DNA from: Deferribacteres bacterium
Lineage (GTDB): Bacteria; Zhuqueibacterota; Zhuqueibacteria; Zhuqueibacterales; Geothermadaptataceae
DNA length: 64,000 nt
Direction: 5' to 3'
NCBI GenBank assembly: GCA_020633655.1
Contig: JACKDF010000002.1
Coordinates: 75,895 to 139,894, forward strand
Shown here: positions 7,568 to 59,926 of the stretch, piece by piece
Numbering within the stretch: position 1 is the first letter of the stretch
Layout: every line of letters starts with the position of its first letter
Notes under the pieces: generated by a model
Seen by the model: only the letters and a program-made list of their open reading frames with translations
What the model was told of the DNA's origin: nothing
Database searches by the model: none
Translations under genes and position numbers: made by a program

Positions 7568-7700
7568 GTTTTTTTGAACACAGATGGGACGGATGAAGCG
7601 GATTGGTTTTGTACCGGGAAAGAATTGAGTTGTTGAGGTTTTTTGCGATACTCAAATAATCTGGGGTGGTGTCAAAAATCGTATAAAAAATTGAAAAAAA

Positions 7701-7729
7701 CTCTGACAGGGTTCCGAACCCTGTCAGAG
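7701..7729. repeat. Hairpin repeat family D copy 1 (ctctgacaggg-ttccgaa-ccctgtcagag)
   Basis: 11-bp perfect stem. A near-identical hairpin occurs at 26788..26816. Confidence 0.85.
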
Positions 7730-7759
7730 TTGGCACTACTCAATTTCAGGATGAACCGT

Positions 7760-23228: not shown

Positions 23229-23867
23229 TTATTTTGGCTCTTCAAATTGAAAACCAGTCACCTTTTTTCCCGCTTTGATGAGGCTTTTATCAAAGGTTGC
23301 GAATTTATTGATGGCTTGTGACTTTGATAAATGCAATGCGTCAGCAAAATCAGGTTCCGATTTGTGCCATTGATGCGCATTCTGTACTAAAAGTTGATCT
23401 TCCACAACGACATTTGCAAGGCCAAAGAGAGATTCAAAGGCCTCAATAATTTCTAGTGGATTAAACTTGCAGGCGTAACGAAGCACCCATTCAGTTTCTA
23501 ATAGAACAGTTGTTGTTATGTATATAATCTCTCGTGCAAATAACGATTTTGCTTTGGCGAATTGCGTTCGGTCATCTGCCTTCAGGAAACGGACTATCAC
23601 ATTTGTATCAACAGAGGTCATTTTTCTCCATAGCTCATTTATAATCGCACCTTCCATTTCTTCGAGAGTAATTGGCTTGCCTGAATATCTCAAAATACCA
23701 ACCACCTGCTCAAGTTTTGTCTCCTTGAAAAGCTGGGCAGGTTTTAACAAGATGCCATCGCCTGTATCGATGATGGCCAGTTCTTGTCCGATTTCCCATT
23801 TATAAATATCCCGTAGATTTTTAGGAATGATCACTTGCCCTTTGCTGGACATTTTTGTTTTCTGCAT
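23229..23867 (-). CDS. In-frame fusion of an AbrB/MazE/SpoVT-type antitoxin domain (aa 1-82) and a PIN-domain (VapC-like) toxin (aa 83-212)
   Basis: N-terminal SSKGQVIIPKNLRDIYKWEIGQELAIIDTGDGILLKP (SpoVT/AbrB swapped-hairpin). From M83: VDTNVIVRFL, TTTVLLETEWVL, DFADALHL and FATFDKSL (PIN acidic residues). An internal GGAGA lies 3 nt before the ATG at 23621. Confidence 0.7.
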   Translation of the reverse strand: MQKTKMSSKGQVIIPKNLRDIYKWEIGQELAIIDTGDGILLKPAQLFKETKLEQVVGILRYSGKPITLEEMEGAIINELWRKMTSVDTNVIVRFLKADDRTQFAKAKSLFAREIIYITTTVLLETEWVLRYACKFNPLEIIEAFESLFGLANVVVEDQLLVQNAHQWHKSEPDFADALHLSKSQAINKFATFDKSLIKAGKKVTGFQFEEPK

Positions 23868-24228: not shown

Positions 24229-24579
24229 ATGAAATTACTGCAAACGGTCATTCACGAAATCGAATCTGCCTCTGAGCTCGATAAAATCATTAATGAGAAC
24301 GACAATGTTATGGTATGCTGTGGCCGTATGGGGCCAATGTGTGTACCGGTTTACGATACAATGGAAGAACTCGAAGAAGAACGCCCGAACATTAAATTTT
24401 ATTCGATGGCATTTGATACACCGGAAGCCACACCCATTCGCACCGCACCTATGTGCCGGAATTTTATGGGCTTGCCATTTACAGTTTACTACAAAAACGG
24501 CGAAATGGTCGAGGCGACTTCCAGTATCCAAAACAGAAACCAGATTACCACAATCCTTGATAAACATTTTAGCGAATAA
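24229..24579 (+). CDS. Thioredoxin-fold protein with an atypical active-site region (CCGRMGPMC in place of WCGPC)
   Basis: Collinear with thioredoxin (LPFTVYYKNGEMV = cis-Pro/beta4 region). ATG 24229 is preceded by a GGAGA RBS and gives 116 aa; ORF-track start 24070 (TTG) is an unlikely extension. Confidence 0.65.
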   Translation: MKLLQTVIHEIESASELDKIINENDNVMVCCGRMGPMCVPVYDTMEELEEERPNIKFYSMAFDTPEATPIRTAPMCRNFMGLPFTVYYKNGEMVEATSSIQNRNQITTILDKHFSE

Positions 24580-24587
24580 ACAGACCA

Positions 24588-25514
24588 ATGGATGAAATAT
24601 ATGATGTAATGATTTTGGGTGCCGGCGCGGCTGGTTTAACCGCAGGCATCTATTCATCCCGGGCAAAATTAAACACCCTTATTCTCAACGATGGCGCTAT
24701 TGGCGGGCAGCTGGTGCTTACCAATGAAATCGCCAATTATCCGGGAGTGGAGACAACCAAAGGCTTTGTCCTGGCGAATACGATGAAAAAACAGGCCAAG
24801 GACTTTGGGTGCAAAATAAAATCAAACATAAAAGTAGCTGAGTATCACCTCGAGGGGGATGTGAAAAGTGTAAAGCTCGACGATGGTCGAGAGTTTCATG
24901 CCCGCAGCGTCATTCTCGCACCCGGTGGTCGTCCCCGTTCCCTGAATATCCCCGGTGAAGACGAATTCAAAGGGACGGGCGTATCCTATTGTTCCACGTG
25001 CGATGGTGAATTTTTTACAGACAAGGAATTGATCGTTGTCGGTGGAGGGAATTCTGCTTTGGAAGAAGCGGTGGCATTGACAAAGTATGCGACAAAAATC
25101 ACAATCGTGCACCAATTCGATCACTTCCAGGCATTTGAGCATGCCGTGCGTGAAGCGAAAAACAATCCCAAAATCAATTTCGTTATGGAATCAGAACCGC
25201 GTGCTTTTTTCGGCGAGGAGAAATTGAATCGTGTTAAGGTGGAGCACTTGCCGACAGGCGAAACATCGGAAATAAATGTTGATGGTGTCTTCATATTTGT
25301 TGGTTATCTGCCCAACACGGAATCGCTGAAAGGACATGTGCAGTTGAATGAGCGCAACGAAATTGTGGTTGACACGGAAATGAAAACGAATGTGCCGGGT
25401 GTTTTCGCCGCCGGCGACTGCATAGTGAAGCGTTACCGCCAGGTAACGACGGCTGTGGCAGACGGAACAATTGCAGCGTTGAGCGTTGCAGAATATATAA
25501 GAAATGCAAAATAG
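24588..25514 (+). CDS. Low-Mr thioredoxin-reductase-family flavoprotein lacking the NADPH HRRxxxR motif
   Basis: FAD motif ILGAGAAGLTAG, redox CSTCDGEFF, second Rossmann motif GGGNSALEEA, and AAGDC near the C-terminus. The HRRDGFR position reads HQFDHFQ. Confidence 0.8.
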   Translation: MDEIYDVMILGAGAAGLTAGIYSSRAKLNTLILNDGAIGGQLVLTNEIANYPGVETTKGFVLANTMKKQAKDFGCKIKSNIKVAEYHLEGDVKSVKLDDGREFHARSVILAPGGRPRSLNIPGEDEFKGTGVSYCSTCDGEFFTDKELIVVGGGNSALEEAVALTKYATKITIVHQFDHFQAFEHAVREAKNNPKINFVMESEPRAFFGEEKLNRVKVEHLPTGETSEINVDGVFIFVGYLPNTESLKGHVQLNERNEIVVDTEMKTNVPGVFAAGDCIVKRYRQVTTAVADGTIAALSVAEYIRNAK

Positions 25515-25530
25515 GGTATTCGTCGGCTTT

Positions 25531-25616
25531 TCTTGCAATACATCTTGCGATACACGATTTGAACGATGGGCAGTGGATATCCCCTGCCTAATCTTTGTGT
25601 TTATGAGTTAAGCAGG
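25531..25616 (+). repeat. Palindromic intergenic repeat family A, copy 2 (left arm degenerate)
   Basis: gatgggcagtggatatcccctgcctaatctttgtgtttatgagttaagcagg. Confidence 0.8.
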
Positions 25617-25811
25617 TAAGGTTCAATGAGAAAAGCGATAGCCTCGTTCCCAGATATCTTATTTTTTATGCGATATTTATTACATTCAACTGCAGTTACT
25701 TTTTTGTGTCATCGATAGTGATTTTGCCAGGAGGCAGAATTGATCTTCGTAAGACAGAGTTGATAAAACCCCCGGGTTCCGTAGAATACAAATTAAATAA
25801 AGACAACGACC

Positions 25812-26762
25812 ATGAAAGAAAGACTTCAATTTTTTCCAATTACAATTTTTGCCATAATTATGGGACTTTCGGGATTAACGATTGTCTTTGGCAAGTTTTA
25901 TCACATGCAATGGTTACCGAAAATTTTCTATGATAGTCTTTTGTTCTTTACAACCGGCTTGTTTCTCTTTTTTCTCTTCACTTATGGCCGCAAAGCAATC
26001 GTCTATTTTGAAGAAGTCAAGAAGGATTTCCATCATAAAATACGGATAAATTTCTTCTCGGCTATTTCAATATCTTTTATTCTGCTATCCATAGCTTTTA
26101 TGACGTATTGGCCATTTCTCTCGCTCATTCTGTGGTGGGTGGGGGTCGTGCTGCATACGATTTTTATGCTTTACACACTGAGCTTTTGGATACGTGATAA
26201 TTTTGAGATTCATGCGATGAATCCCGCCTGGTTTATTCCCATAGTTGGCAATATCCTGGTGCCGGTTGCCGGGGTGGAATACCTGCCCAAGGCATTTTCA
26301 TTTTTCTATTTTTCTGTTGGCTTTTTCTTCTGGATCATCCTTTTTACGATTTTCTTGTACCGGGCTATTTTTCATCATCAGTTGCCACAAAAATTTATCC
26401 CGACGCTTTTTATCCTTATAGCACCGCCGGCAGTTGGTTTTATCGCCTACATTCGCATTGCGCAAAGCTGGGATAGTTTTGCTGTTTTTATGCTGTTCAT
26501 CGCCTACTTTTTTGTCGCACTGCTCCTGTTTTTATATGATAGCTTTAAGAATCTCAAATTTTTTATTTCCTGGTGGGCATTTACATTCCCGATGATGGCA
26601 ATAACCCTGGCCTCCGTCGTGGCCTATCAGGTTTCGAGTATTGTTCTCTATAAATACTTGTCTTTTGTGATGTTCGTTTTCGCCTTGTTTACGATTCTAT
26701 TCGTCGCGTGGAAGACCATGGAGAAAGTACTTCAAGGCGAGATTTGTGTGAATGAAGATTAA
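25812..26762 (+). CDS. TehA / SLAC1-family (C4-dicarboxylate/malic acid/tellurite-resistance type) anion channel-transporter
   Basis: About 10 hydrophobic helices, 316 aa. The N-terminal FFPITIFAIIMGLSGL and WFIPIVGNILVP are typical of this family. Confidence 0.65.
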   Translation: MKERLQFFPITIFAIIMGLSGLTIVFGKFYHMQWLPKIFYDSLLFFTTGLFLFFLFTYGRKAIVYFEEVKKDFHHKIRINFFSAISISFILLSIAFMTYWPFLSLILWWVGVVLHTIFMLYTLSFWIRDNFEIHAMNPAWFIPIVGNILVPVAGVEYLPKAFSFFYFSVGFFFWIILFTIFLYRAIFHHQLPQKFIPTLFILIAPPAVGFIAYIRIAQSWDSFAVFMLFIAYFFVALLLFLYDSFKNLKFFISWWAFTFPMMAITLASVVAYQVSSIVLYKYLSFVMFVFALFTILFVAWKTMEKVLQGEICVNED

Positions 26763-26787
26763 TTTTAAATGAGATAAGTAGCATCTA

Positions 26788-26816
26788 CTCTGACAGGTTT
26801 TTAAACCCTGTCAGAG
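26788..26816. repeat. Hairpin repeat family D copy 2 (ctctgacagg-tttttaaa-cctgtcagag)
   Basis: Same stem sequence as 7701..7729. Confidence 0.85.
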
Positions 26817-26851
26817 CTGACTCTACTGGCAAAATAGAAAAGGCATTAAAA

Positions 26852-27358
26852 ATGAAAACAAAAATAATAGTCATAGCATCGGTGATTCTCGGATTTGTCC
26901 TCGGAATCTTTTTTTCAGGTGTGGTTCTCTCAGTTTCCTCGGGAGAGATGATGGTCAAAGAATTTAAAAGTCCCTATGATTTTGACAAAACAGTCGAAGT
27001 TGTCGCCCAACGCATTAATACAAAAAGCGGTTGGCATGTTACCGACATCATCGATCAGAATAAAGCGGTAACGGAAAATGGTGGTTTCGATATCGGCAAT
27101 TTCAAAATCATTAAATATTGCCACGGCGCTTATTCAGCGAAAATGTTACAAGCCGACGACAGAAAAATTATCGGCACGATGATGCCGAAATCCTTTGCGG
27201 TTTATGAAAAAACAGACGGGCAGGTGTTCGTTGCCACAATGAATGGTGCGATTATGGGAAAGCTTTTTGGTGGCGAAACCGAGAAGCTGATTGAAGAAGT
27301 TTCCCTCGAAGTGGAAGACATGATGCGTTTTATTAATCTTAAATATACGTTGTTTTAA
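26852..27358 (+). CDS. DUF302-domain protein with N-terminal transmembrane anchor
   Basis: SPYDFDKTVEVVAQRI...GWHV...D...KIIKYCH...MP..FAVYE pattern typical of DUF302. Confidence 0.6.
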   Translation: MKTKIIVIASVILGFVLGIFFSGVVLSVSSGEMMVKEFKSPYDFDKTVEVVAQRINTKSGWHVTDIIDQNKAVTENGGFDIGNFKIIKYCHGAYSAKMLQADDRKIIGTMMPKSFAVYEKTDGQVFVATMNGAIMGKLFGGETEKLIEEVSLEVEDMMRFINLKYTLF

Positions 27359-27408
27359 TAGAAATTTTAAATAAATTTCATGATGCAAAAGTAAAGGAAG
27401 TAAGTAAC

Positions 27409-27999
27409 ATGATTGAATGGATTAAAACTGGATCAGACTTTGATCAGATACAAGCAAAACAGGACGATCTGGATATCCTGTTTTTTTATGGTGATTTTTC
27501 CGATGCGGCTAAACGTGCATTAACAGAACTGGAAGAATTTGCCAAAGAAAACGACAAAACTAAAATTTACGGAGTCGACGTAGCTAAAAACAAAGATGTG
27601 CACAAGCACCTCGGCGTTAAAAGTGTGCCCACCGTAGTGATGATGCAAAAGGGTAAGGTCAGTGAAACCATTGAAGGCGTGCAAAGCGCACAATATTATG
27701 CTCGCGCCTTCACCGGTGCAAGTCCAGCGTTGCGCAAAGCCTCCACTGGTTCCGACAAGTCTGCTGCACCACGTGTGGTGGTTTACAGCACACCGACCTG
27801 TCCGGCATGCAATAACGCCAAAGCCCATTTTCGCCGCAAAGGCGTGCGCTTCCGCGACGTGGATGTATCCCGGGATCAGTCGGCAGCCGATGCTATGGTG
27901 AGCCGCAGTGGACAGATGGGGGTACCGCAAATTGATATCAACGGCCAGCTCATCGTTGGATTTGACCAGGCTCGAATTGATCGCTTATTGAATATTTAA
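27409..27999 (+). CDS. Fusion of a redox-inactive thioredoxin-fold domain with a C-terminal glutaredoxin-like (NrdH/YruB-type, CPAC) domain
   Basis: N-terminal Trx-like fold with FSDAAK in place of WCGPCK. C-terminal VVVYSTPTCPACNNAKAHFRRKGVRFRDVDVS...GVPQIDINGQLIVGFD. Confidence 0.7.
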   Translation: MIEWIKTGSDFDQIQAKQDDLDILFFYGDFSDAAKRALTELEEFAKENDKTKIYGVDVAKNKDVHKHLGVKSVPTVVMMQKGKVSETIEGVQSAQYYARAFTGASPALRKASTGSDKSAAPRVVVYSTPTCPACNNAKAHFRRKGVRFRDVDVSRDQSAADAMVSRSGQMGVPQIDINGQLIVGFDQARIDRLLNI

Positions 28000-28015
28000 T
28001 AGTGGAGATGACAAG

Positions 28016-28300
28016 ATGAAAATCAAACCGATTAACGGACGTATACTGATTCAACCAGTTGAAAAACAAAGCACCACTGCAGGTGGTATATATATTCCGG
28101 ATACGGCAAAAGAAAAAGTATACGAAGGGAAAATTATCGATATGCCAAAAGATGTTTCCGATGAAGTAGTGGTTGGTGATATCGTGGTATACAAAGAATA
28201 CAGCGGTTCGGAAATTACCATCGAAGGTGAGAAGTATCTGCTGGTTACTGTTGATGATCTACTGGCAAAATACGTTACAACAGATGAGATTCCGGATTAA
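28016..28300 (+). CDS. groES: Co-chaperonin GroES (Cpn10) homologue, not followed by groEL
   Basis: MKIKPINGRILIQPVEKQSTTAGGIYIPDTAKEK...VGDIVVYKEYSGSEI..EGEKYLLV..DDLLA is collinear with Cpn10, including the mobile loop. Confidence 0.85.
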   Translation: MKIKPINGRILIQPVEKQSTTAGGIYIPDTAKEKVYEGKIIDMPKDVSDEVVVGDIVVYKEYSGSEITIEGEKYLLVTVDDLLAKYVTTDEIPD

Positions 28301-28350
28301 GGTTGTTTGTTTTTTTTAGCTGAAAAATAAATCGAATGATTTATTTTAAA

Positions 28351-28378
28351 AGCCCTGTATTTGCAGGGCTTTTTGTTT
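28351..28378 (+). terminator. Rho-independent terminator after groES
   Basis: agccctg-tatttg-cagggct followed by tttttgtttt. Confidence 0.8.
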
Positions 28379-29102
28379 TGTATATGATCCCGGGGCCCAT
28401 AGTTTAAGCTCAAATTTTCCAGGGGAAAATCGTCCTACATTTCCGTTGCAATTGGGAAAAAATTCCGTTTATTGGTACATACAATCCCCTTCACTTTGTT
28501 TTGAAATGTGTAAAAGTGTGAAGCAACCAGGATGCATGACAAGGACACTGCAATGCCTGATTTCACCGATTCTACTGCCCAATTTTCGAAACCTTGCAAC
28601 GATAGCCTCCTTGCCATTCTCAGTCATACTTTTCGATTCGTAATGAATTTTAAAAATTTCAAGTAAATGAAGTTCAAAAAGAGAAAAAAATCCCGCCCTG
28701 ATTCCATCGTTCGTTTTAATAATTATCTCTGGAAAAAAATATTTTCCCCCTGGCCATAACCATTTTAGCCTGCATTACCTAATCCATCGGGATTTGTTGG
28801 GATACCCAGGCAAATTCTGAATATTTATTCAAAGCAGGCATACATACCACACTTTCCTGATTATTTTTGATTCTTGTTTATTTGCATGATCGTCATTTTG
28901 CTTCGCCGGCCTTCGGCTCGGCAAGCTTTTGGCCAAAACGAAGTTCTGTGGAAGCAAAATCCACCTTTGTCAACCTCAACTATTTATAGATTCTTGATTT
29001 CAATATAGTGGAACGACAAAAAAAGCATTTCCGGATGGATACAAATATTTGATTTTTTATAACCTAATCGTTTAAAATAAAGAAATATAAAGGAGTATAA
29101 AA

Positions 29103-30664: not shown

Positions 30665-33600
30665 ATGTGGCGTTCATTTGGAAGTTTAGTATTTCAAAGA
30701 TTTCGGTCATTTTCGCTAATTGTTTTCATTTTCTTGATGAGTTCAATTTCGGCATACAGCCAAAGCACTACAATTTATTATGAAGATTGGGAAGATGGCG
30801 TTGGACGATGGTTTGCAAGTAATGGAGTTTGGGAAGTTGGTATTCCATCCATTGGACCTGATAGTGCCCATTCAGGTCAAAAATGTGCAGCTACTATTTT
30901 GGATGGGAATTATCCAAGTAATGCAAATACTCGATTAGAAAGTCCAATTAGTCCTGTAATTTCACTACCAAGCATAAATTCCAATGAAAAAATACAATTA
31001 AAATTCTGGCACTGGTTTAGAAATTCAGACGACAAAGGCGAATTACAAATTTCGGTCGATGGATCGGATTGGCAAACAATTTCGAAACGACCTTTTCAAG
31101 GCACAAGCTACTGTTGGACACAATTCGTTGCAGACCTTTCAGAGTATGCAGGCTCAACAATTCGCCTTGGATTTTCTTTTTCCTCAGGTAATTATTACTC
31201 AGACAATGGCTGGTATATCGATGATATTCTTATTGAGAAAAAACAAGTCAAGTTTCAAAATCCAGAAGATTTCGAAACCGGAGTGGGGGATTGGAGTGCC
31301 GATAATGGTCTCTGGGAAGTTGGTATACCGACAAATGGGCCGCCTGCCACGCATTCTGGTCAGAATTGTATTGGGACTGTATTGGATAAAAATTATCCGG
31401 AAAATGCTGCTACCCGATTGATTAGTCCCCCGACGATATTGCCTATAGTTTCCCCAGGAGAAAAAATACAATTAAAATTCTGGCACTGGTTTAGAAATTC
31501 AGACGACAAAGGCGAATTACAAATTTCGGTCGATGGATCGGATTGGCAAACAATTTCGAAACGACCTTTTCAAGGCACAAGCTACTGTTGGACACAATTC
31601 GTTGCAGACCTTTCAGAGTATGCAGGCTCAACAATTCGCCTTGGATTTTCTTTTTCCTCAGGTAATTATTACTCAGACAATGGCTGGTATATCGATGATA
31701 TTCTTATTGAGAAAAAACAAGTCAAGTTTCAAAATCCAGAAGATTTCGAAACCGGAGTGGGGGATTGGAGTGCCGATAATGGTCTCTGGGAAGTTGGTAT
31801 ACCGACAAATGGGCCGCCTGCCACGCATTCTGGTCAGAATTGTATTGGGACTGTATTGGATAAAAATTATCCGGAAAATGCTGCTACCCGATTGATTAGT
31901 CCCCAAATTACTCTTAAACATAAACAAGGGGAGATTCCCATTCTATATTTCTGGCATTGGTTTAGATTAAGTGATGATCAGGGCTATGTTCAATTATCTG
32001 TTAATGGAGGGCCTTGGCGTACAGTTGCTGGACCTTTTAGTGGTAAGAGTGATGTGTGGTCACAAGCACCTCCTGTGGAACTTTCAACATATATTGATTC
32101 AACTGTAAGTATAGCGTTCTCTTTTTTCTCAGGTAATTATTATTCAGACAATGGCTGGTATATCGACGACATTAGAATCGAAGGAATAGATACGACATCA
32201 TATCGTCTTGACTTCATCACCCTCACCTACCAGCAAATTGATGCGTCCAATTTTTGCGATTCGTCAAAAGTGCATTCTTACGTCACGGTATCTGACAGCA
32301 GCGGTAATGCCCTGTCAGATCTTGGTGTGAATAATTTCTCAGTGAAAGAAGATGGCGAGGTGCAAAGTCCGATCACGGTGGAACACATCGGCGCAACTCA
32401 GCAACCAATTTCGGTGGCAATGGTTCTGGACCGCAGCAGTAGTATGGCGGGGCAGCCTCTGGTCGATGCAAAAAATGCGGCGATTGATTTTGTTCACAAA
32501 ATGGCAGATCACGATATGGGAGCGGTCATTAGTTTTGCGGCGGATGTTGTCGTTGATCAGGAATTTACAACCGACAAAGATTTGCTTGTTACTGCCATTG
32601 AGGCCATTAGCAATAGTGAATCAACCCACCACTATGACGGCCTCATGGAGGCGATCAATCAATGCGGCCCGTTGACTGGGAGAAAAGCAATAATTACATT
32701 GACAGACGGCAAGGATGGTAGCAGTGTCACAACCATCGATTCGTGCATCGCCGCTGCACAAAAAGCGCAACTACCCATTTTCACCATTGGTTTGCTTGGC
32801 GGATCAGGTATTGATGAGGAAGCTCTGAAAAAGATTGCAAGCGAAACAGGTGGCCTCTACTATTTTTCACCTTCATCTGAAAAATTGGCTTATATCTACA
32901 ATGTAATTGCTGAGCATATTCTGCAAAACCAGTACAAAATCACCTACTCCCCACGCAATACAAATGGTGATGGTGTAACCTCACGACTTGTTGAAATAAC
33001 GGCTTCATATAATGGGTCAACAGATTCAAAATCCAAAAGCTACATACCGGCGCCGTGTGATACTCTCGTTCCTTTCTACCCAATTACAGTGAGTGATACG
33101 ATACCGCCAAGCCAAAGATTCTGGCTTGATTTAAAAGTGGGCAAAGAGAATCAGCAAGTAAATGATTTATTTGGCATCGCGTTCAAATTGAAATACGACG
33201 AAAATGTTCTCATTTTTCACACAATAAAGGAGGATGAATTTATTGGCAATGATCCAGTGAGTCATTTTGAAGCGGATTCAATTTCCGGTATAATTGCCAG
33301 TGGAGTTTCACGTAAAGCCGGTTCAGGAGGTGTGAATGGTTTTGGCACCGTCGTAAAAGCCGAGTTTGAAGTCAGAAAGAATATCGCCGATGGAACGGTT
33401 GCATGGTTTGAATTGTTGGATGTCTATGCCATCAATTCCCAGGGTGTAGAAATTCGTCTGGATACATTACAATACAAAATCGTTGTTAGCAGTTGTCTCA
33501 CAACGTGGCCGGGAGATGCCAATAATGATGGTTTTGTCGATGAAAAGGATGTGCTGCCGATCGGATTTTTCTGGCATACAAGCGGAAATGAATCTCCCTG

Positions 33601-34504
33601 CCGGCAGGCGGCACCCTTCGAATGGCAACCATGCTGCTGTGTACCCTGGACGCCTACTGCTGCAACCTATGCGAACAGTAACGGTGATGGCATCATTGAC
33701 GAAAAAGATGTACTGGCATTGGGAATGAATTGGCATAAAGCTCATTCCATTTCAAAAAAACGTAGCGCTACGTCTTTGGCCTTTGATTCCGACAGTATGC
33801 TTATCGATATCCCAAACACGCTGCAAAAGGGACAGGAAATCGATATCAGAATCAGTGTACCGGAAACGAAAGATTTATTTGGTTTCTCCTTTAAGGCGCA
33901 ATTTGCAAACTATGAATTTCTGGAATTTCTTCAAATAAAGCCTGGTGGTTTTCTGGGAGGTAATTTGATATCCTTTGGCGATATTGATATAGAAAATGGG
34001 ATCGCATCTTTGGGACAAACGAAAAAATCGGGTGCAGCAGGAGCAAATGGATCAGGGTGTGTCGCAATTATTTTGTTGAAAGTTAAAGACACCGCACCGG
34101 AAAATTTCCGAATAAAGGTACATGTCACTGATATTACTGCAAATGATTCACAAGGCACAAGATTGGCATACAATGATGCAACTGTATACTTTACGAGTGT
34201 AAATTATCAGGCAATTCAATTGCCAACCAAGTTCGCTCTTGAACAAAATTATCCAAATCCTTTCAATCCGGAAACGACAATTTCCTATCAATTGCCACGT
34301 GCAACGAATGTGAAATTAATCGTGTTGAATTCAGTAGGACAACATGTCCGAACGCTTGTGGCGGAAGAAAAATCTGCTGGTCGGCATATAGTTCGGTGGA
34401 ATGGACTGAACGGCCTTGGCCGAAAGGTATCGAGTGGCATCTATTTTTACCAACTTGAAGCCGGTGAGTTCACCCAAATGAAAAAAATGATTCTACTTCA
34501 ATAA
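30665..34504 (+). CDS. Giant secreted multidomain protein: 3 MAM/jelly-roll-like N-terminal domains, vWA domain, cohesin-like / dockerin / cohesin-like modules, T9SS C-terminal sorting domain
   Basis: Signal peptide. Three 158-aa modules (W-VG-P-----HSG--C--T-LD-NYP-NA-TRL-SP ... FWHWF ... GNYYSDNGWYIDDI). MIDAS DRSSSM ... LTDGKDG. Dockerin loops GDANNDGFVDEKDV and NSNGDGIIDEKDV. C-terminal QNYPNPFNPETTISYQLP...GIYFYQL...KKMILLQ. Confidence 0.8.
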   Translation: MWRSFGSLVFQRFRSFSLIVFIFLMSSISAYSQSTTIYYEDWEDGVGRWFASNGVWEVGIPSIGPDSAHSGQKCAATILDGNYPSNANTRLESPISPVISLPSINSNEKIQLKFWHWFRNSDDKGELQISVDGSDWQTISKRPFQGTSYCWTQFVADLSEYAGSTIRLGFSFSSGNYYSDNGWYIDDILIEKKQVKFQNPEDFETGVGDWSADNGLWEVGIPTNGPPATHSGQNCIGTVLDKNYPENAATRLISPPTILPIVSPGEKIQLKFWHWFRNSDDKGELQISVDGSDWQTISKRPFQGTSYCWTQFVADLSEYAGSTIRLGFSFSSGNYYSDNGWYIDDILIEKKQVKFQNPEDFETGVGDWSADNGLWEVGIPTNGPPATHSGQNCIGTVLDKNYPENAATRLISPQITLKHKQGEIPILYFWHWFRLSDDQGYVQLSVNGGPWRTVAGPFSGKSDVWSQAPPVELSTYIDSTVSIAFSFFSGNYYSDNGWYIDDIRIEGIDTTSYRLDFITLTYQQIDASNFCDSSKVHSYVTVSDSSGNALSDLGVNNFSVKEDGEVQSPITVEHIGATQQPISVAMVLDRSSSMAGQPLVDAKNAAIDFVHKMADHDMGAVISFAADVVVDQEFTTDKDLLVTAIEAISNSESTHHYDGLMEAINQCGPLTGRKAIITLTDGKDGSSVTTIDSCIAAAQKAQLPIFTIGLLGGSGIDEEALKKIASETGGLYYFSPSSEKLAYIYNVIAEHILQNQYKITYSPRNTNGDGVTSRLVEITASYNGSTDSKSKSYIPAPCDTLVPFYPITVSDTIPPSQRFWLDLKVGKENQQVNDLFGIAFKLKYDENVLIFHTIKEDEFIGNDPVSHFEADSISGIIASGVSRKAGSGGVNGFGTVVKAEFEVRKNIADGTVAWFELLDVYAINSQGVEIRLDTLQYKIVVSSCLTTWPGDANNDGFVDEKDVLPIGFFWHTSGNESPCRQAAPFEWQPCCCVPWTPTAATYANSNGDGIIDEKDVLALGMNWHKAHSISKKRSATSLAFDSDSMLIDIPNTLQKGQEIDIRISVPETKDLFGFSFKAQFANYEFLEFLQIKPGGFLGGNLISFGDIDIENGIASLGQTKKSGAAGANGSGCVAIILLKVKDTAPENFRIKVHVTDITANDSQGTRLAYNDATVYFTSVNYQAIQLPTKFALEQNYPNPFNPETTISYQLPRATNVKLIVLNSVGQHVRTLVAEEKSAGRHIVRWNGLNGLGRKVSSGIYFYQLEAGEFTQMKKMILLQ
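30986..31904 (+). repeat. Perfect intragenic tandem duplication: two identical 445-bp copies (30986..31430 and 31460..31904), period 474 bp
   Basis: The two stretches read identically base for base in the listing. The identical off-frame ORFs at 31059..31421 and 31533..31895 in the ORF track confirm this. Confidence 0.9.
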
Positions 34505-59843: not shown

Positions 59844-59926
59844 CATGCTTTATTCATACAATGCTCAAGTTGAAAGATGGGCAGGGGATATCCCATGCCC
59901 AATCTCGTGGTTTATGAATAAACCAG
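59844..59926 (+). repeat. Palindromic intergenic repeat family A, copy 5
   Basis: catgctttattcat...gatgggcaggggatatcccatgcccaatctcgtggtttatgaataaaccagg. Confidence 0.85.

What the first reader, a model, noticed from the sequence alone, without database searches (positions are those of the whole stretch)
24229..28378. Unusual redox cluster: atypical Trx, NADPH-motif-less TrxR, TehA/SLAC1 channel, DUF302, Trx-Grx fusion and orphan GroES
- **Gene set:** six same-strand genes ending in one clean intrinsic terminator.
  - a thioredoxin-fold protein whose active site reads CCGRMGPMC;
  - a TrxR homologue without HRRxxxR;
  - a TehA/SLAC1-type anion channel;
  - a membrane-anchored DUF302 protein;
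  - a protein fusing a CxxC-less Trx fold to a CPAC glutaredoxin-like domain;
  - a GroES homologue.
- **Spacing:** the first two genes are 8 nt apart and the last three are 50 and 16 nt apart. The TehA gene is set off on both sides by palindromic repeats: family A copy 2 upstream and family D copy 2 downstream.
- **Interpretation:** I know of no described pathway combining these parts. The composition suggests handling of a reactive anion (tellurite, selenite, sulfite or similar) coupled to a dedicated disulfide relay. That remains speculation.
Basis: partly seen in the sequence, partly recalled or inferred. Interest (0 to 1): 0.7.

Follow-up and report, generated by a model that had tools for sequence, protein, structure and literature searches.

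The report
Modular thiol-redox stress operon, GroES-linked
The six genes are real and form three conserved gene pairs: an unusual thioredoxin-like protein with its reductase, an anion channel with a DUF302 protein, and a glutaredoxin fusion with a stripped-down GroES. Anaerobic bacteria combine these pairs in different ways, most likely as a defence against oxidative damage to proteins.

Summary

The six genes are not one fixed pathway. They are three conserved two-gene modules.
- **A, p1+p2.** A Trx-fold protein with C-x6-C (CGRMGPMC) sits next to a low-MW TrxR that keeps GGGNSALEE but has HQFDxFQAF in place of HRRxxxR. The two are adjacent in 68 of 73 genome loci, mostly Bacteroidota. The usual layout is Crp/Fnr< NifX-like, p1, p2, OsmC, Trx.
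- **B, p3+p4.** SLAC1/TehA is followed by a membrane-anchored DUF302 protein. This held in 5 of 5 look-ups, in three of them without module A nearby.
- **C, p5+p6.** A CxxC-less Trx domain is tethered to a YruB/NrdH-type Grx domain, followed by a Cpn10 paralogue. The pair is adjacent in 73 of 77 metagenome loci, mostly without module A. The GroES copy is therefore not an orphan. It keeps the GroEL-binding mobile loop, always lacks the roof hairpin, and has a conserved C-terminal tail.

Other genomes carry all six genes in a different module order.

The best reading is an accretion of stress modules around a dedicated non-NADPH thioredoxin system. Oxyanion handling remains possible only for module B. 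No biochemical characterisation was found.

The parts
24229..24579 (+). p1: atypical thioredoxin-fold protein. Its active-site loop reads C31-G-R-M-G-P-M-C38 (C-x6-C), with additional C30 and C76.
   Evidence: No Pfam hit. AF2 gives pLDDT 94 with a Trx fold. Foldseek top hits are thioredoxins at TM 0.75-0.84 and 15-25% identity. C31, G32-C38 and C76 are invariant in 14 orthologues. The family is compact: 153 representatives at 50% clustering among 1.84e9 proteins.
24588..25514 (+). p2: low-molecular-weight thioredoxin-reductase-type flavoprotein. It has CSTC and GGGNSALEE, and HQFDHFQAF replaces HRRxxxR.
   Evidence: Among orthologues, HQFDxFQAF occurs in 72 of 74, GGGNSALEE in 73 of 74, and CATCDG plus (D/E)FF are kept. 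It lies directly downstream of p1 in 68 of 73 loci that have room.
25568..25589 (.). Palindrome of family A in the 297-nt gap between p2 and p3.
   Evidence: three copies in the window, none expected by chance; the hairpin has no clear T run.
25812..26762 (+). p3: TehA/SLAC1-family (TDT) anion channel or transporter.
   Evidence: PF03595 at 6.5e-50 and TIGR00816 at 3.6e-43. PDB relatives by sequence are SLAH3, SLAH1, SLAC1 and H. influenzae TehA.
26777..26827 (.). 51-nt hairpin between p3 and p4. Its core is the family D palindrome, which has a second copy at 7699-7731.
   Evidence: -24.1 kcal/mol, z -4.7, no T run.
26852..27358 (+). p4: DUF302 protein with an N-terminal membrane anchor. By the positive-inside rule the domain probably faces the periplasm (inferred).
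   Evidence: PF03625 at 7.5e-10. No solved relative by sequence. SLAC1 lies immediately upstream in all five looked-up loci, with a 22-59 nt gap.
27409..27999 (+). p5: redox-inactive Trx-fold domain (1-103), flexible linker (104-117) and a YruB/NrdH-type glutaredoxin-fold domain with C131-P-A-C134.
   Evidence: TIGR02196 at 101 bits, above its 88.55 cut-off. Alignment A3 shows no CxxC in the N-domain of any member, with H65, P74, G90, Y97, C131 and C134 invariant. AF2 shows two domains, a linker with pLDDT below 50 and pTM 0.52. The N-domain matches thioredoxins at TM 0.85-0.90.
28016..28300 (+). p6: Cpn10/GroES paralogue. The mobile loop is kept, the roof hairpin is deleted, and there is an extra conserved C-terminal tail.
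   Evidence: PF00166 at 5e-22, but below every NCBIfam GroES cut-off. Alignment of 87 unique family members against three canonical GroES sequences. It lies directly downstream of p5 in 73 of 77 loci.
28348..28383 (+). Intrinsic-terminator-like hairpin plus T run that ends the cluster.

Best explanation
The cluster is a mosaic thiol-redox and proteostasis stress operon built from three conserved two-gene modules.

**Module A (p1+p2)** is a dedicated thioredoxin-type system.
- p2 is an FAD/CxxC flavoprotein that still has the pyrophosphate-binding GGGxxAxE motif.
- It has lost the Arg cluster that binds the 2'-phosphate of NADPH. It most likely takes electrons from NADH. This is inferred; another donor is possible.
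- p2 passes electrons through its C(S/A)TC dithiol to its cognate partner p1, which would cycle a C31-C38 disulfide.

**Module C (p5+p6)** is the likely client or effector.
- The NrdH/YruB-type CPAC domain of p5 is the kind of Grx-fold redoxin that TrxR-type enzymes reduce, rather than glutathione.
- It is tethered to a redox-dead Trx-fold domain that could hold substrate proteins.
- Its obligate partner p6 keeps the GroEL-binding mobile loop. Together they would couple disulfide reduction to chaperonin-assisted refolding of oxidised proteins.

**Module B (p3+p4)** pairs a TehA/SLAC1 anion channel with a periplasm-facing DUF302 protein. It is a separate cargo that moves an unidentified small anion during the same stress.

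**Shown:** the gene content, the motifs, the folds, the adjacency statistics, and the variable combination of modules.

**Inferred:** the electron donor, the direction of the relay, GroEL binding by p6, the transported anion, and the nature of the stress.
For: **Module A**
- p2 follows p1 in 68 of 73 genome loci.
Matches include the isolates Mariniphaga anaerophila, Marinilabilia salmonicolor, Draconibacterium species and Anaerophaga thermohalophila.
- Both proteins are unusually conserved, at roughly 65-83% identity across Bacteroidota families.
- p2 orthologues keep GGGNSALEE, CATCDG and FF, and carry HQFDxFQAF.
- p1 has a Trx fold.

**Genes that recur next to module A**
- The commonest architecture is Crp/Fnr< NifX-like, p1, p2, OsmC, Trx (15 loci).
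- Counts among 81 loci: Crp/Fnr 60, NifX-like 42, Trx 36, OsmC 33, p5/p6 12, p3/p4 8.

**All six genes elsewhere**
- L043 and L176 carry them in the order p1, p2, p5, p6, p3, p4, followed by OsmC.
- A diverged pair (48-50% identity, HQFDELQAE) lies after p5-p6 in L106.
- Classical HRR-type TrxRs follow p5-p6 in L109 and L122. A further TrxR-like gene follows in L116, where the motif could not be read.

**Module C**
- Adjacency holds in 73 of 77 loci across 36-57% identity.
- The GroES mobile loop T..GI..PD.A.EK is conserved in the family.
- In one locus, groEL lies immediately upstream of p5-p6 (L149).

**Precedents**
- NADH-dependent DvTR3 works with a non-canonical Trx3, and TaTR, which lacks HRRxxxR, uses NADH (PMC5627308, PMC6262447).
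- CnoX is a Trx-fold redox plug-in of GroEL/ES (bioRxiv 10.1101/2022.05.03.490446).

**Module B near antioxidant genes**
- SLAC1-DUF302 sits beside OsmC, a peroxiredoxin, ferritin, hemerythrin and divergent Crp/Fnr genes.
Against: - There is no biochemical or expression evidence of any kind.
- The window lacks the Crp/Fnr regulator, the OsmC and the Trx seen in relatives.
- The window also lacks the operator-like palindrome found upstream of many relatives' operons.
- A 297-nt gap carrying a hairpin and a promoter-like site (25760-25787) separates p2 from p3. Co-transcription of all six genes is therefore unproven.
- Because relatives often also encode a canonical WCGPC Trx, p1 need not be the main substrate of p2.
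- In the wider p1 family the second Cys is often Ser, so a dithiol mechanism is not universal.
- NADH use is inferred from motifs only. DvTRi and FFTR show that such enzymes may use other donors.
- p6 has no Cys, and no physical link to p5 or GroEL has been shown.
Confidence: 0.55

Rival explanations
1. The whole cluster is one pathway for a reactive oxyanion such as tellurite, selenite, sulfite or arsenite. The TehA-like channel moves the anion and the disulfide relay reduces it or repairs thiols damaged by it.
For: - p3 belongs to the TehA/TDT family.
- Some relatives carry a class I SAM methyltransferase in the same operon, with weak TehB and ArsM similarity.
- One p5-p6 locus (L091) lies among ArsP, ArsR-type HTH, methyltransferase and MerA-like genes.
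- DUF302 genes occur in sox clusters of sulfur oxidisers (PMC5037610).
Against: - p3-p4 accompany p1-p2 in only about 8 of 81 loci, whereas OsmC and Trx are four times commoner.
- p5-p6 occur mostly without any TehA gene.
- p3-p4 occur alone under a Crp/Fnr regulator.
- There is no TehB or ArsM-like gene in the window.
- The methyltransferase's best matches are generic or UbiE-like.
Confidence: 0.15
2. p1 is not the substrate of p2. It is an obligate accessory subunit: an electron-input, regulatory or specificity module. The real substrates are the canonical Trx or the Grx domain encoded alongside.
For: - p1-p2 adjacency is near-universal and both proteins are unusually conserved, as expected for a tight complex.
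- A WCGPC Trx is co-encoded in 36 of 81 loci.
- The canonical CxxC geometry is absent, and the N-terminal half cannot be aligned to E. coli Trx even profile-to-sequence.
- The second Cys is replaced by Ser in many distant relatives.
Against: - C31, C38 and C76 are invariant in the clade that sits next to p2.
- p2 keeps the FF Trx-docking residues.
- p1 has a plain Trx fold with a cis-Pro loop.
- Some genomes have p1 without an adjacent p2 (for example L080, L084 and L086).
Confidence: 0.15
3. The three modules are functionally independent. They are neighbours only because stress genes accrete and travel together by horizontal transfer, so no electron or substrate passes between them.
For: - Each pair occurs alone.
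- Module order varies.
- In the window, p1-p4 are 76-82% identical to Bacteroidota proteins, although the host is labelled KSB1 or Deferribacteres.
- By contrast p5-p6 resemble the Bacteroidota versions at only 37-47% and are closest (54-67%) to proteins from other metagenomic lineages. This indicates a chimeric origin.
- A 297-nt gap and repeat palindromes sit at the module borders.
Against: - The A+C combination recurs in lineages whose p1-p2 are only 48-66% identical to the window's (L093, L106, L138, L144).
- p5-p6 are also found next to unrelated classical TrxRs.
- The genes share one strand, and gaps are short in most relatives (for example 10 nt between p2 and p3 in L001).
Confidence: 0.15

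Closest known systems
Desulfovibrio vulgaris DvTR3/DvTrx3, an NADH-preferring TrxR with a dedicated non-canonical thioredoxin, and the wider set of low-MW TrxRs lacking HRRxxxR (TaTR NADH, MjTR F420, FFTR ferredoxin, DvTRi unknown donor) (PMC5627308, PMC6262447, PMC10880999)
   Same: - p2 is a low-MW TrxR scaffold with a CxxC.
- The 2'-phosphate Arg cluster is lost.
- It is genetically paired with an atypical Trx-fold partner.
- It occurs in anaerobes.
   Different: - The motif is HQFDxFQAF, not the TQ/NGK of TRi.
- GGGxxAxE and FF are kept, unlike FFTR and TR3.
- By sequence p2 is closest to classical NTRs: 2q7v at 248 bits against FFTR 6gna at 112 bits.
- The partner has C-x6-C instead of CxxC.
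- The distribution is mainly Bacteroidota and other FCB lineages.
Clostridium pasteurianum Cp34/Cp9/Cp20: an NADH-dependent TrxR-like protein, a YruB-type glutaredoxin-like protein and a peroxiredoxin (Reynolds, Meyer and Poole 2002; recalled from my own knowledge, not read here)
   Same: - A TrxR-like flavoprotein works with a Grx-fold CPxC redoxin of the YruB family. The p5 C-domain passes TIGR02196.
- The system feeds a thiol peroxidase. Relatives of this cluster encode OsmC.
   Different: - Here the Grx domain is fused to a redox-dead Trx domain and coupled to a GroES paralogue.
- An extra Trx-fold protein (p1) is present.
- There is no peroxidase in the window.
CnoX (YbbN) chaperedoxin, a redox quality-control plug-in of GroEL/ES (bioRxiv 10.1101/2022.05.03.490446; PMC6282202)
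   Same: - A thioredoxin-fold protein without a classical CxxC is functionally tied to the chaperonin system to rescue oxidised clients.
- YbbN (3qou) appears among the structural matches of p5.
   Different: - p5 has no TPR domain and no CnoX C-terminal helix.
- The link here is genetic, to a GroES paralogue, and is not a shown binding to GroEL.
- p5 carries an active Grx domain.
Phage T4 Gp31, a co-chaperonin lacking the GroES roof hairpin (Hunt et al. 1997; recalled from my own knowledge)
   Same: A Cpn10-fold co-chaperonin that retains the mobile loop and has no roof beta-hairpin.
   Different: - p6 is cellular and much closer in sequence to bacterial GroES.
- Its mobile loop is of normal length.
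- It has an added conserved C-terminal tail.
- It is always encoded next to a redoxin.
Haemophilus influenzae TehA, plant SLAC1/SLAH channels, and the E. coli TehAB tellurite-resistance pair
   Same: p3 is a full-length PF03595 member of bacterial TehA size (316 aa).
   Different: - The partner is a membrane-anchored DUF302 protein, not the TehB methyltransferase.
- The substrate is unknown.

Membership tests
Low-MW NADPH-thioredoxin reductase (TIGR01292 / classical NTR) | FAD-binding fold and a CxxC redox centre in the pyridine-nucleotide domain | tested here: met
   Pyr_redox_2 at 1.7e-54. The motif is CSTCDG, and CATCDG in 70 of 74 orthologues.
Low-MW NADPH-thioredoxin reductase (TIGR01292 / classical NTR) | GGGxxAxE pyrophosphate-binding motif | tested here: met
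   GGGNSALEE occurs in the window and in 73 of 74 orthologues.
Low-MW NADPH-thioredoxin reductase (TIGR01292 / classical NTR) | VxxxHRRDxxRA 2'-phosphate-binding motif | tested here: not met
   The window reads ITIVHQFDHFQA, and HQFDxFQAF is conserved in 72 of 74 orthologues.
Low-MW NADPH-thioredoxin reductase (TIGR01292 / classical NTR) | Score above the curated family cut-off | tested here: inconclusive
   345.4 bits against a cut-off of 343.45, so it only just passes. NCBI names it thioredoxin-disulfide reductase.
Ferredoxin-dependent flavin TrxR (FFTR, Clostridia) | Absence of both NAD(P)H motifs and clustering with clostridial FFTRs | tested here: not met
   The GGG motif is retained. FFTR structures 6gna and 6gnc score 112 bits, against 248 bits for classical NTR 2q7v.
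DvTRi-type NAD(P)H-independent TrxR | Conserved TQ/NGK motif replacing HRRD, with a degenerate PP motif (PMC5627308) | tested here: not met
   The motif is HQFD and the PP motif is intact.
Thioredoxin (PF00085 / TIGR01068) | Trx fold with a cis-Pro loop | tested here: met
   AF2 pLDDT is 94. Foldseek gives TM 0.75-0.84 to thioredoxins. The GLP83 cis-Pro region aligns to E. coli Trx.
Thioredoxin (PF00085 / TIGR01068) | WCGPC (CxxC) active site and a score above the family cut-off | tested here: not met
   The motif is CGRMGPMC. There is no Pfam hit, and TIGR01068 scores 17 bits against 96.8.
TehA/SLAC1 (PF03595, TDT family) | Full-length match above the Pfam gathering score | tested here: met
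   170.6 bits against 27.9, covering residues 8-302. It is below the NCBIfam TehA equivalog cut-off (119.5 against 342), so it is a family member rather than a TehA orthologue.
E. coli TehAB tellurite resistance | An adjacent TehB SAM-methyltransferase partner | tested here: not met
   There is no methyltransferase in the cluster. The partner is DUF302.
DUF302 (PF03625) | Domain match above the gathering score | tested here: met
   39 bits against 23.
YruB/NrdH-type glutaredoxin-like redoxin (TIGR02196) | Grx fold with CxxC and a score above the cut-off | tested here: met
   The C-domain (122-195) scores 101.2 bits against 88.55. C131 and C134 are invariant.
YruB/NrdH-type glutaredoxin-like redoxin (TIGR02196) | Reduction by a TrxR-type enzyme rather than by glutathione | not testable with these tools
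   This needs an enzyme assay. Only genomic adjacency to TrxR-type genes was seen.
Protein disulfide oxidoreductase (PDO, TIGR02187) | Two Trx-fold units packed into one compact protein, with a score above the cut-off | tested here: not met
   31.9 bits against 185. AF2 shows two independent domains joined by a disordered linker, with pTM 0.52.
GroES co-chaperonin (Cpn10, PF00166) | Cpn10 fold or domain and a GroEL-binding mobile loop | tested here: met
   PF00166 scores 78 bits against 21. The mobile-loop consensus T..GI..PD.A.EK is conserved across 87 sequences.
GroES co-chaperonin (Cpn10, PF00166) | Roof beta-hairpin, a score above the GroES equivalog cut-offs, and a groES-groEL operon | tested here: not met
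   - A 9-residue roof deletion occurs in all family members.
- The best NCBIfam score is 81.9 against 109.
- There is no groEL next to p6 in the window or in more than 150 loci, except L149.
GroES co-chaperonin (Cpn10, PF00166) | Heptamer formation and binding to GroEL | not testable with these tools
   This needs biochemistry or multimer modelling.
CnoX/YbbN chaperedoxin | A Trx domain fused to a TPR domain, with a GroEL-binding C-terminal helix | tested here: not met
   There is no TPR Pfam hit, and the C-terminal half is a Grx domain. The analogy is functional only.

The most novel reading that the evidence does not exclude
The p5-p6 pair is a previously unrecognised redox co-chaperonin system.
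- p6 is a roofless GroES paralogue that caps GroEL.
- Its obligate partner p5 holds clients with a dead Trx domain and reduces their aberrant disulfides with the tethered Grx domain.
- p5 is recharged by a dedicated non-NADPH TrxR and its C-x6-C Trx-like partner.

This would be a cellular counterpart of the CnoX plug-in, built into the lid rather than the ring.
Probability: 0.2. Interest if true: 0.8.

Novelty: new variant of a known kind. Interest (0 to 1): 0.55.

Why it matters
**A missed branch of alternative thioredoxin systems.** These systems are known in anaerobes from a few models such as Desulfovibrio, Clostridia and archaea. This cluster points to a widespread and uncharacterised one.
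- It occurs in Bacteroidota and other FCB bacteria.
- It has its own diagnostic motifs: CGRMGPMC in p1 and HQFDxFQAF in p2.
- Databases currently label the proteins generically, as 'thioredoxin family protein' and 'thioredoxin-disulfide reductase'.
- It occurs in culturable species, so it can be tested directly.

**A possible redox input to chaperonin function.** A distinct GroES subfamily is coupled almost obligatorily to a Trx-Grx fusion, across several named lineages. This would broaden the idea of redox quality control of chaperonin substrates, so far known from CnoX.

**A lead for two poorly understood families.** The fixed SLAC1-DUF302 pairing gives DUF302 and bacterial TehA-like channels a concrete partner and a stress context to test.

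Tried and rejected
**Classifications rejected**
- FFTR and DvTRi membership for p2 was rejected on motifs and on similarity.
- PDO-type architecture for p5 was rejected. The AF2 model has a flexible linker and TIGR02187 scores far below its cut-off.

**Hypotheses that gained no support**
- p1 as an Fe-S (thioredoxin-like ferredoxin) protein using its four Cys. C30 is not conserved and C38 is often Ser in the wider family. The Foldseek hits listed are thioredoxins and Trx fusion constructs. I could not measure Cys geometry because model coordinates are not exposed.
- Shared regulation. I found an operator-like palindrome, A[AG]CTGAAAnnTTTCAG[TC]T, about 99 nt upstream of the first gene in many Marinilabiliales-type loci (40 of 81 at up to 4 mismatches). 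It is absent upstream of p1 in the window. It is also absent from the stand-alone SLAC1-DUF302 loci and from several A+C loci. It therefore cannot be used to tie the modules into one regulon.

**Analyses that led nowhere**
- Mapping the p1 active site onto E. coli Trx by profile alignment. Only the C-terminal half aligns.
- Literature searches for the Grx+GroES pairing, roofless GroES paralogues, DUF302 function, and the p1/p2 motifs. Nothing specific turned up. One search failed on syntax.
- Searching the window for groEL, canonical groES or Trx, OsmC and Crp. None were found.

**Caveats on the statistics**
- Genome loci were retrieved through the CGRMGPMC and PVY[DE]xMEEL patterns, so they are biased toward the Bacteroidota clade.
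- Only the 80 best of at least 585 matches were examined.
- Neighbour calling used stop-to-stop ORFs plus BLASTP, not a gene caller.

Full report
**1. What is in the sequence**

Between 24229 and 28383 the + strand carries six ORFs.

| Gene | Coordinates | Content |
|---|---|---|
| p1 | 24229-24579 | No Pfam hit and only marginal thioredoxin NCBIfam hits; sequence VMVCCGRMGPMC |
| p2 | 24588-25514 | Low-MW TrxR-type flavoprotein; TIGR01292 345.4 bits against a cut-off of 343.45 |
| p3 | 25812-26762 | SLAC1/TehA, 6.5e-50 |
| p4 | 26852-27358 | DUF302 behind an N-terminal hydrophobic anchor |
| p5 | 27409-27999 | Thioredoxin domain without CxxC, plus a YruB-type glutaredoxin domain with CPAC |
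| p6 | 28016-28300 | Cpn10, 5e-22 |

- In p2, aligned to the classical Deinococcus enzyme 2q7v, the window reads GGGNSALEE...ITIVHQFDHFQA where the classical enzyme has GGGDAAVEE...VTVIHRRDTLRA.
- The gaps between genes are 8, 297, 89, 50 and 16 nt.
- A terminator-like hairpin with a T run follows at 28348-28373.
- The palindromes that flank p3 are real. They belong to short repeat families with other copies in the window.
- The flanking genes look unrelated: fucose-isomerase-like, penicillin amidase, an AbrB/MazE-PIN fusion, and AsnA.
- The window matches a MAG labelled 'Deferribacteres bacterium' or 'candidate division KSB1 bacterium'. There p2 is annotated as thioredoxin-disulfide reductase.

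**2. The neighbourhood is conserved, but as three pairs**

*Module A (p1+p2).*
Nearly all are Bacteroidota, including cultured Mariniphaga, Marinilabilia, Draconibacterium, Maribellus and Anaerophaga.
- In 81 distinct loci, p2 lies directly downstream of p1 in 68 of the 73 that have room.
- The p2 orthologues carry HQFDxFQAF in 72 of 74 cases and GGGNSALEE in 73 of 74. They also carry CATCDG and (D/E)FF.
- The commonest architecture is a divergent Crp/Fnr-family regulator followed by a small NifX/NifB-like protein (PF02579), p1, p2, an OsmC-family protein and a membrane-anchored WCGPC thioredoxin.
- p5+p6 follow p2 in 12 loci and p3+p4 in 8.
- L043 and L176 have all six genes in the order p1, p2, p5, p6, p3, p4. 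In L176 they are followed by OsmC.

*Module C (p5+p6).*
- p5 relatives are annotated 'glutaredoxin-like YruB-family protein'. The few named sources include Thermodesulfobacteriota, Syntrophaceae, Myxococcales and Bacteroidales.
- In 82 loci retrieved through p5, a p6 homologue lies on the same strand directly downstream in 73 of the 77 that have room. p5 identities range from 36 to 57%.
- Most of these loci have no p1 or p2.
- Some have p1-p2 (L093, L138, L141, L144, L164), a diverged p1-p2 (L106), or a classical HRR-type TrxR (L109, L122). L116 also has a TrxR-like gene after p5-p6, but its motif could not be read.
- The 'orphan' GroES is therefore the fixed partner of the Trx-Grx fusion.

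*Module B (p3+p4).*
- All five look-ups of p4 relatives show a SLAC1 gene immediately upstream.
- In three of them there is no p1-p2 in the locus, but there is a divergent Crp/Fnr gene (L174, L177, L178). L175 has neither and sits next to OsmC.
- Neighbouring genes include OsmC, a peroxiredoxin, ferritin and hemerythrin.

**3. What the parts look like**

- **p1.** It models confidently (pLDDT 94) as a thioredoxin fold, and its nearest solved structures are thioredoxins. Sequence methods barely see the relationship. A search of 1.84 billion representatives returns only 153 proteins and does not pull in ordinary thioredoxins. hhalign aligns only the cis-Pro half to E. coli Trx.
- **p1 cysteines.** In the clade that sits beside p2, C31, the whole GRMGPMC38 stretch and C76 are invariant. 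In distant relatives the second Cys is often Ser.
- **p5.** It models as two independent domains joined by a disordered linker. The N-domain superposes on thioredoxins at 1.2-1.7 A but never has a CxxC. The C-domain has invariant C131 and C134.
- **p6.** Aligned with 86 family members and three canonical GroES proteins, it keeps the GroEL-binding mobile loop. It lacks the nine-residue roof hairpin in every member and has an extra conserved tail (LAK-x-V-x-x-D-x-I). It has essentially no cysteine.
- **p6 and groEL.** No groEL lies near p6 in the window or in the fetched loci. The one exception is L149, where the 3' end of groEL immediately precedes p5-p6.

**4. Most likely mechanism**

*Shown*
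- Three conserved pairs exist.
- They combine in variable ways with OsmC, Trx and a Crp/Fnr regulator.
- The motifs and folds are as described above.

*Inferred*
- **p2 electron donor.** p2 still binds a dinucleotide, because GGGxxAxE is intact, but it cannot bind the 2'-phosphate. It probably uses NADH, as do T. acidophilum TR and DvTR3, which also lack HRRxxxR (PMC6262447, PMC5627308).
- **The relay.** p2 reduces p1 (C31-C38), or the NrdH/YruB-type CPAC domain of p5, or both. Redoxins of that type are classically reduced by TrxR-type enzymes; this is established knowledge for NrdH and Cp9, which I did not read here.
- **Proteostasis link.** p5, with its dead Trx domain, and the GroES paralogue connect thiol repair to chaperonin folding. 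This is analogous in logic to CnoX on GroEL (bioRxiv 10.1101/2022.05.03.490446).
- **Module B.** p3-p4 move an unidentified anion.
- **The stress.** The recurrent company of OsmC, Trx, peroxiredoxin, ferritin and Crp/Fnr points to oxidative, peroxide or disulfide stress in anaerobes. I put about 0.55 on this overall picture.

**5. Rivals**

It has only weak support: TehA family membership, occasional methyltransferases with faint TehB or ArsM similarity, and one p5-p6 locus inside an ars-like island. The low frequency of p3-p4 among p1-p2 loci counts against it.
- **p1 as an accessory subunit.** This cannot be excluded.
- **Independent modules brought together by transfer.** This has real support in this window. 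p1-p4 are 76-82% identical to Bacteroidota proteins in a genome labelled KSB1, while p5-p6 are of a different lineage type. The regulator and the operator-like palindrome of the relatives are missing. A 297-nt gap with a hairpin and a promoter-like site separates p2 from p3. Co-transcription of all six genes is therefore unproven.

**6. Comparison with known systems and novelty**

- p2 is a low-MW TrxR by fold, CxxC and PP motif, but it fails the defining HRRxxxR feature. It is neither an FFTR nor a TRi by their motifs.
- p1 has the thioredoxin fold but fails the defining active site.
- p6 is a Cpn10-family protein. It fails the GroES equivalog cut-offs, lacks the roof hairpin and lacks the groEL context.
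- p5 passes the YruB family test for its C-domain. It is neither a PDO nor a CnoX.
- Alternative TrxR systems with dedicated redoxins are a known kind, so I rate the whole as a new variant of a known kind.
- The least anticipated element is the near-obligatory pairing of a roofless GroES subfamily with a Trx-Grx fusion. I found no description of it.

**7. Verdict**

- Interest is 0.55. The cluster points to a widespread, testable and uncharacterised redox system and to a possible redox co-chaperonin. Every functional statement beyond gene content and conservation is inference.

Noticed in passing
window 15010-15031, 25568-25589, 59879-59900; and 7699-7731, 26788-26816: There are two families of short perfect or near-perfect palindromes: GGGCAGGGGATATCCCCTGCCC (three copies) and CTCTGACAGG-N9-CCTGTCAGAG (two copies). 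The copies inside the cluster lie in intergenic gaps. They look like REP-type elements or protein-binding sites, and none is expected by chance. Their function is unknown.
   Followed up: partly
window 30665-34504, internal repeat around 31059-31895: The 1279-aa ORF downstream ends in a motif (NYPNPFNPETTISY) that resembles a secretion-sorting domain. It contains an exact tandem duplication of about 474 nt. Identical alternative-frame ORFs at 31059-31421 and 31533-31895, and a repeated protein segment of about 158 aa, are visible.
   Followed up: no
window 23229-23867 (- strand): A single 212-aa ORF fuses an AbrB/MazE-type antitoxin domain to a PIN toxin domain. It lies directly upstream of the cluster, where relatives have a Crp/Fnr regulator.
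   Followed up: partly
related loci, e.g. L030, L034, L038, L054 (about 99 nt upstream of the first operon gene): The palindrome A[AG]CTGAAAnnTTTCAG[TC]T sits at a nearly fixed distance upstream of the NifX-like/p1 operon in many Marinilabiliales-type genomes that carry the divergent Crp/Fnr gene. It occurs in 40 of 81 loci at up to 4 mismatches and is a candidate operator. It is absent in the window and in several other lineages.
   Followed up: partly
L149:2-1354: In one metagenomic contig the 3' end of a groEL gene, with its GGM tail, lies about 80 nt upstream of p5-p6. This is the only physical groEL linkage seen among more than 150 loci.
   Followed up: partly
window 24229-27358 versus 27409-28300: p1-p4 are 76-82% identical to Bacteroidota orthologues, although the host MAG is labelled KSB1 or Deferribacteres. 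p5-p6 are only 37-47% identical to the Bacteroidota versions and are closest to proteins from other, mostly unnamed, metagenomic lineages. This suggests horizontal acquisition and a chimeric assembly of the cluster.
   Followed up: partly
related loci L176, L178: DUF1847 and a small PF02579 (NifX/NifB-like) protein recur in the same operons. The PF02579 protein resembles the C-terminal domain of the Fe-S carrier MrpORP. Their role in this redox context is unexplained.
   Followed up: no
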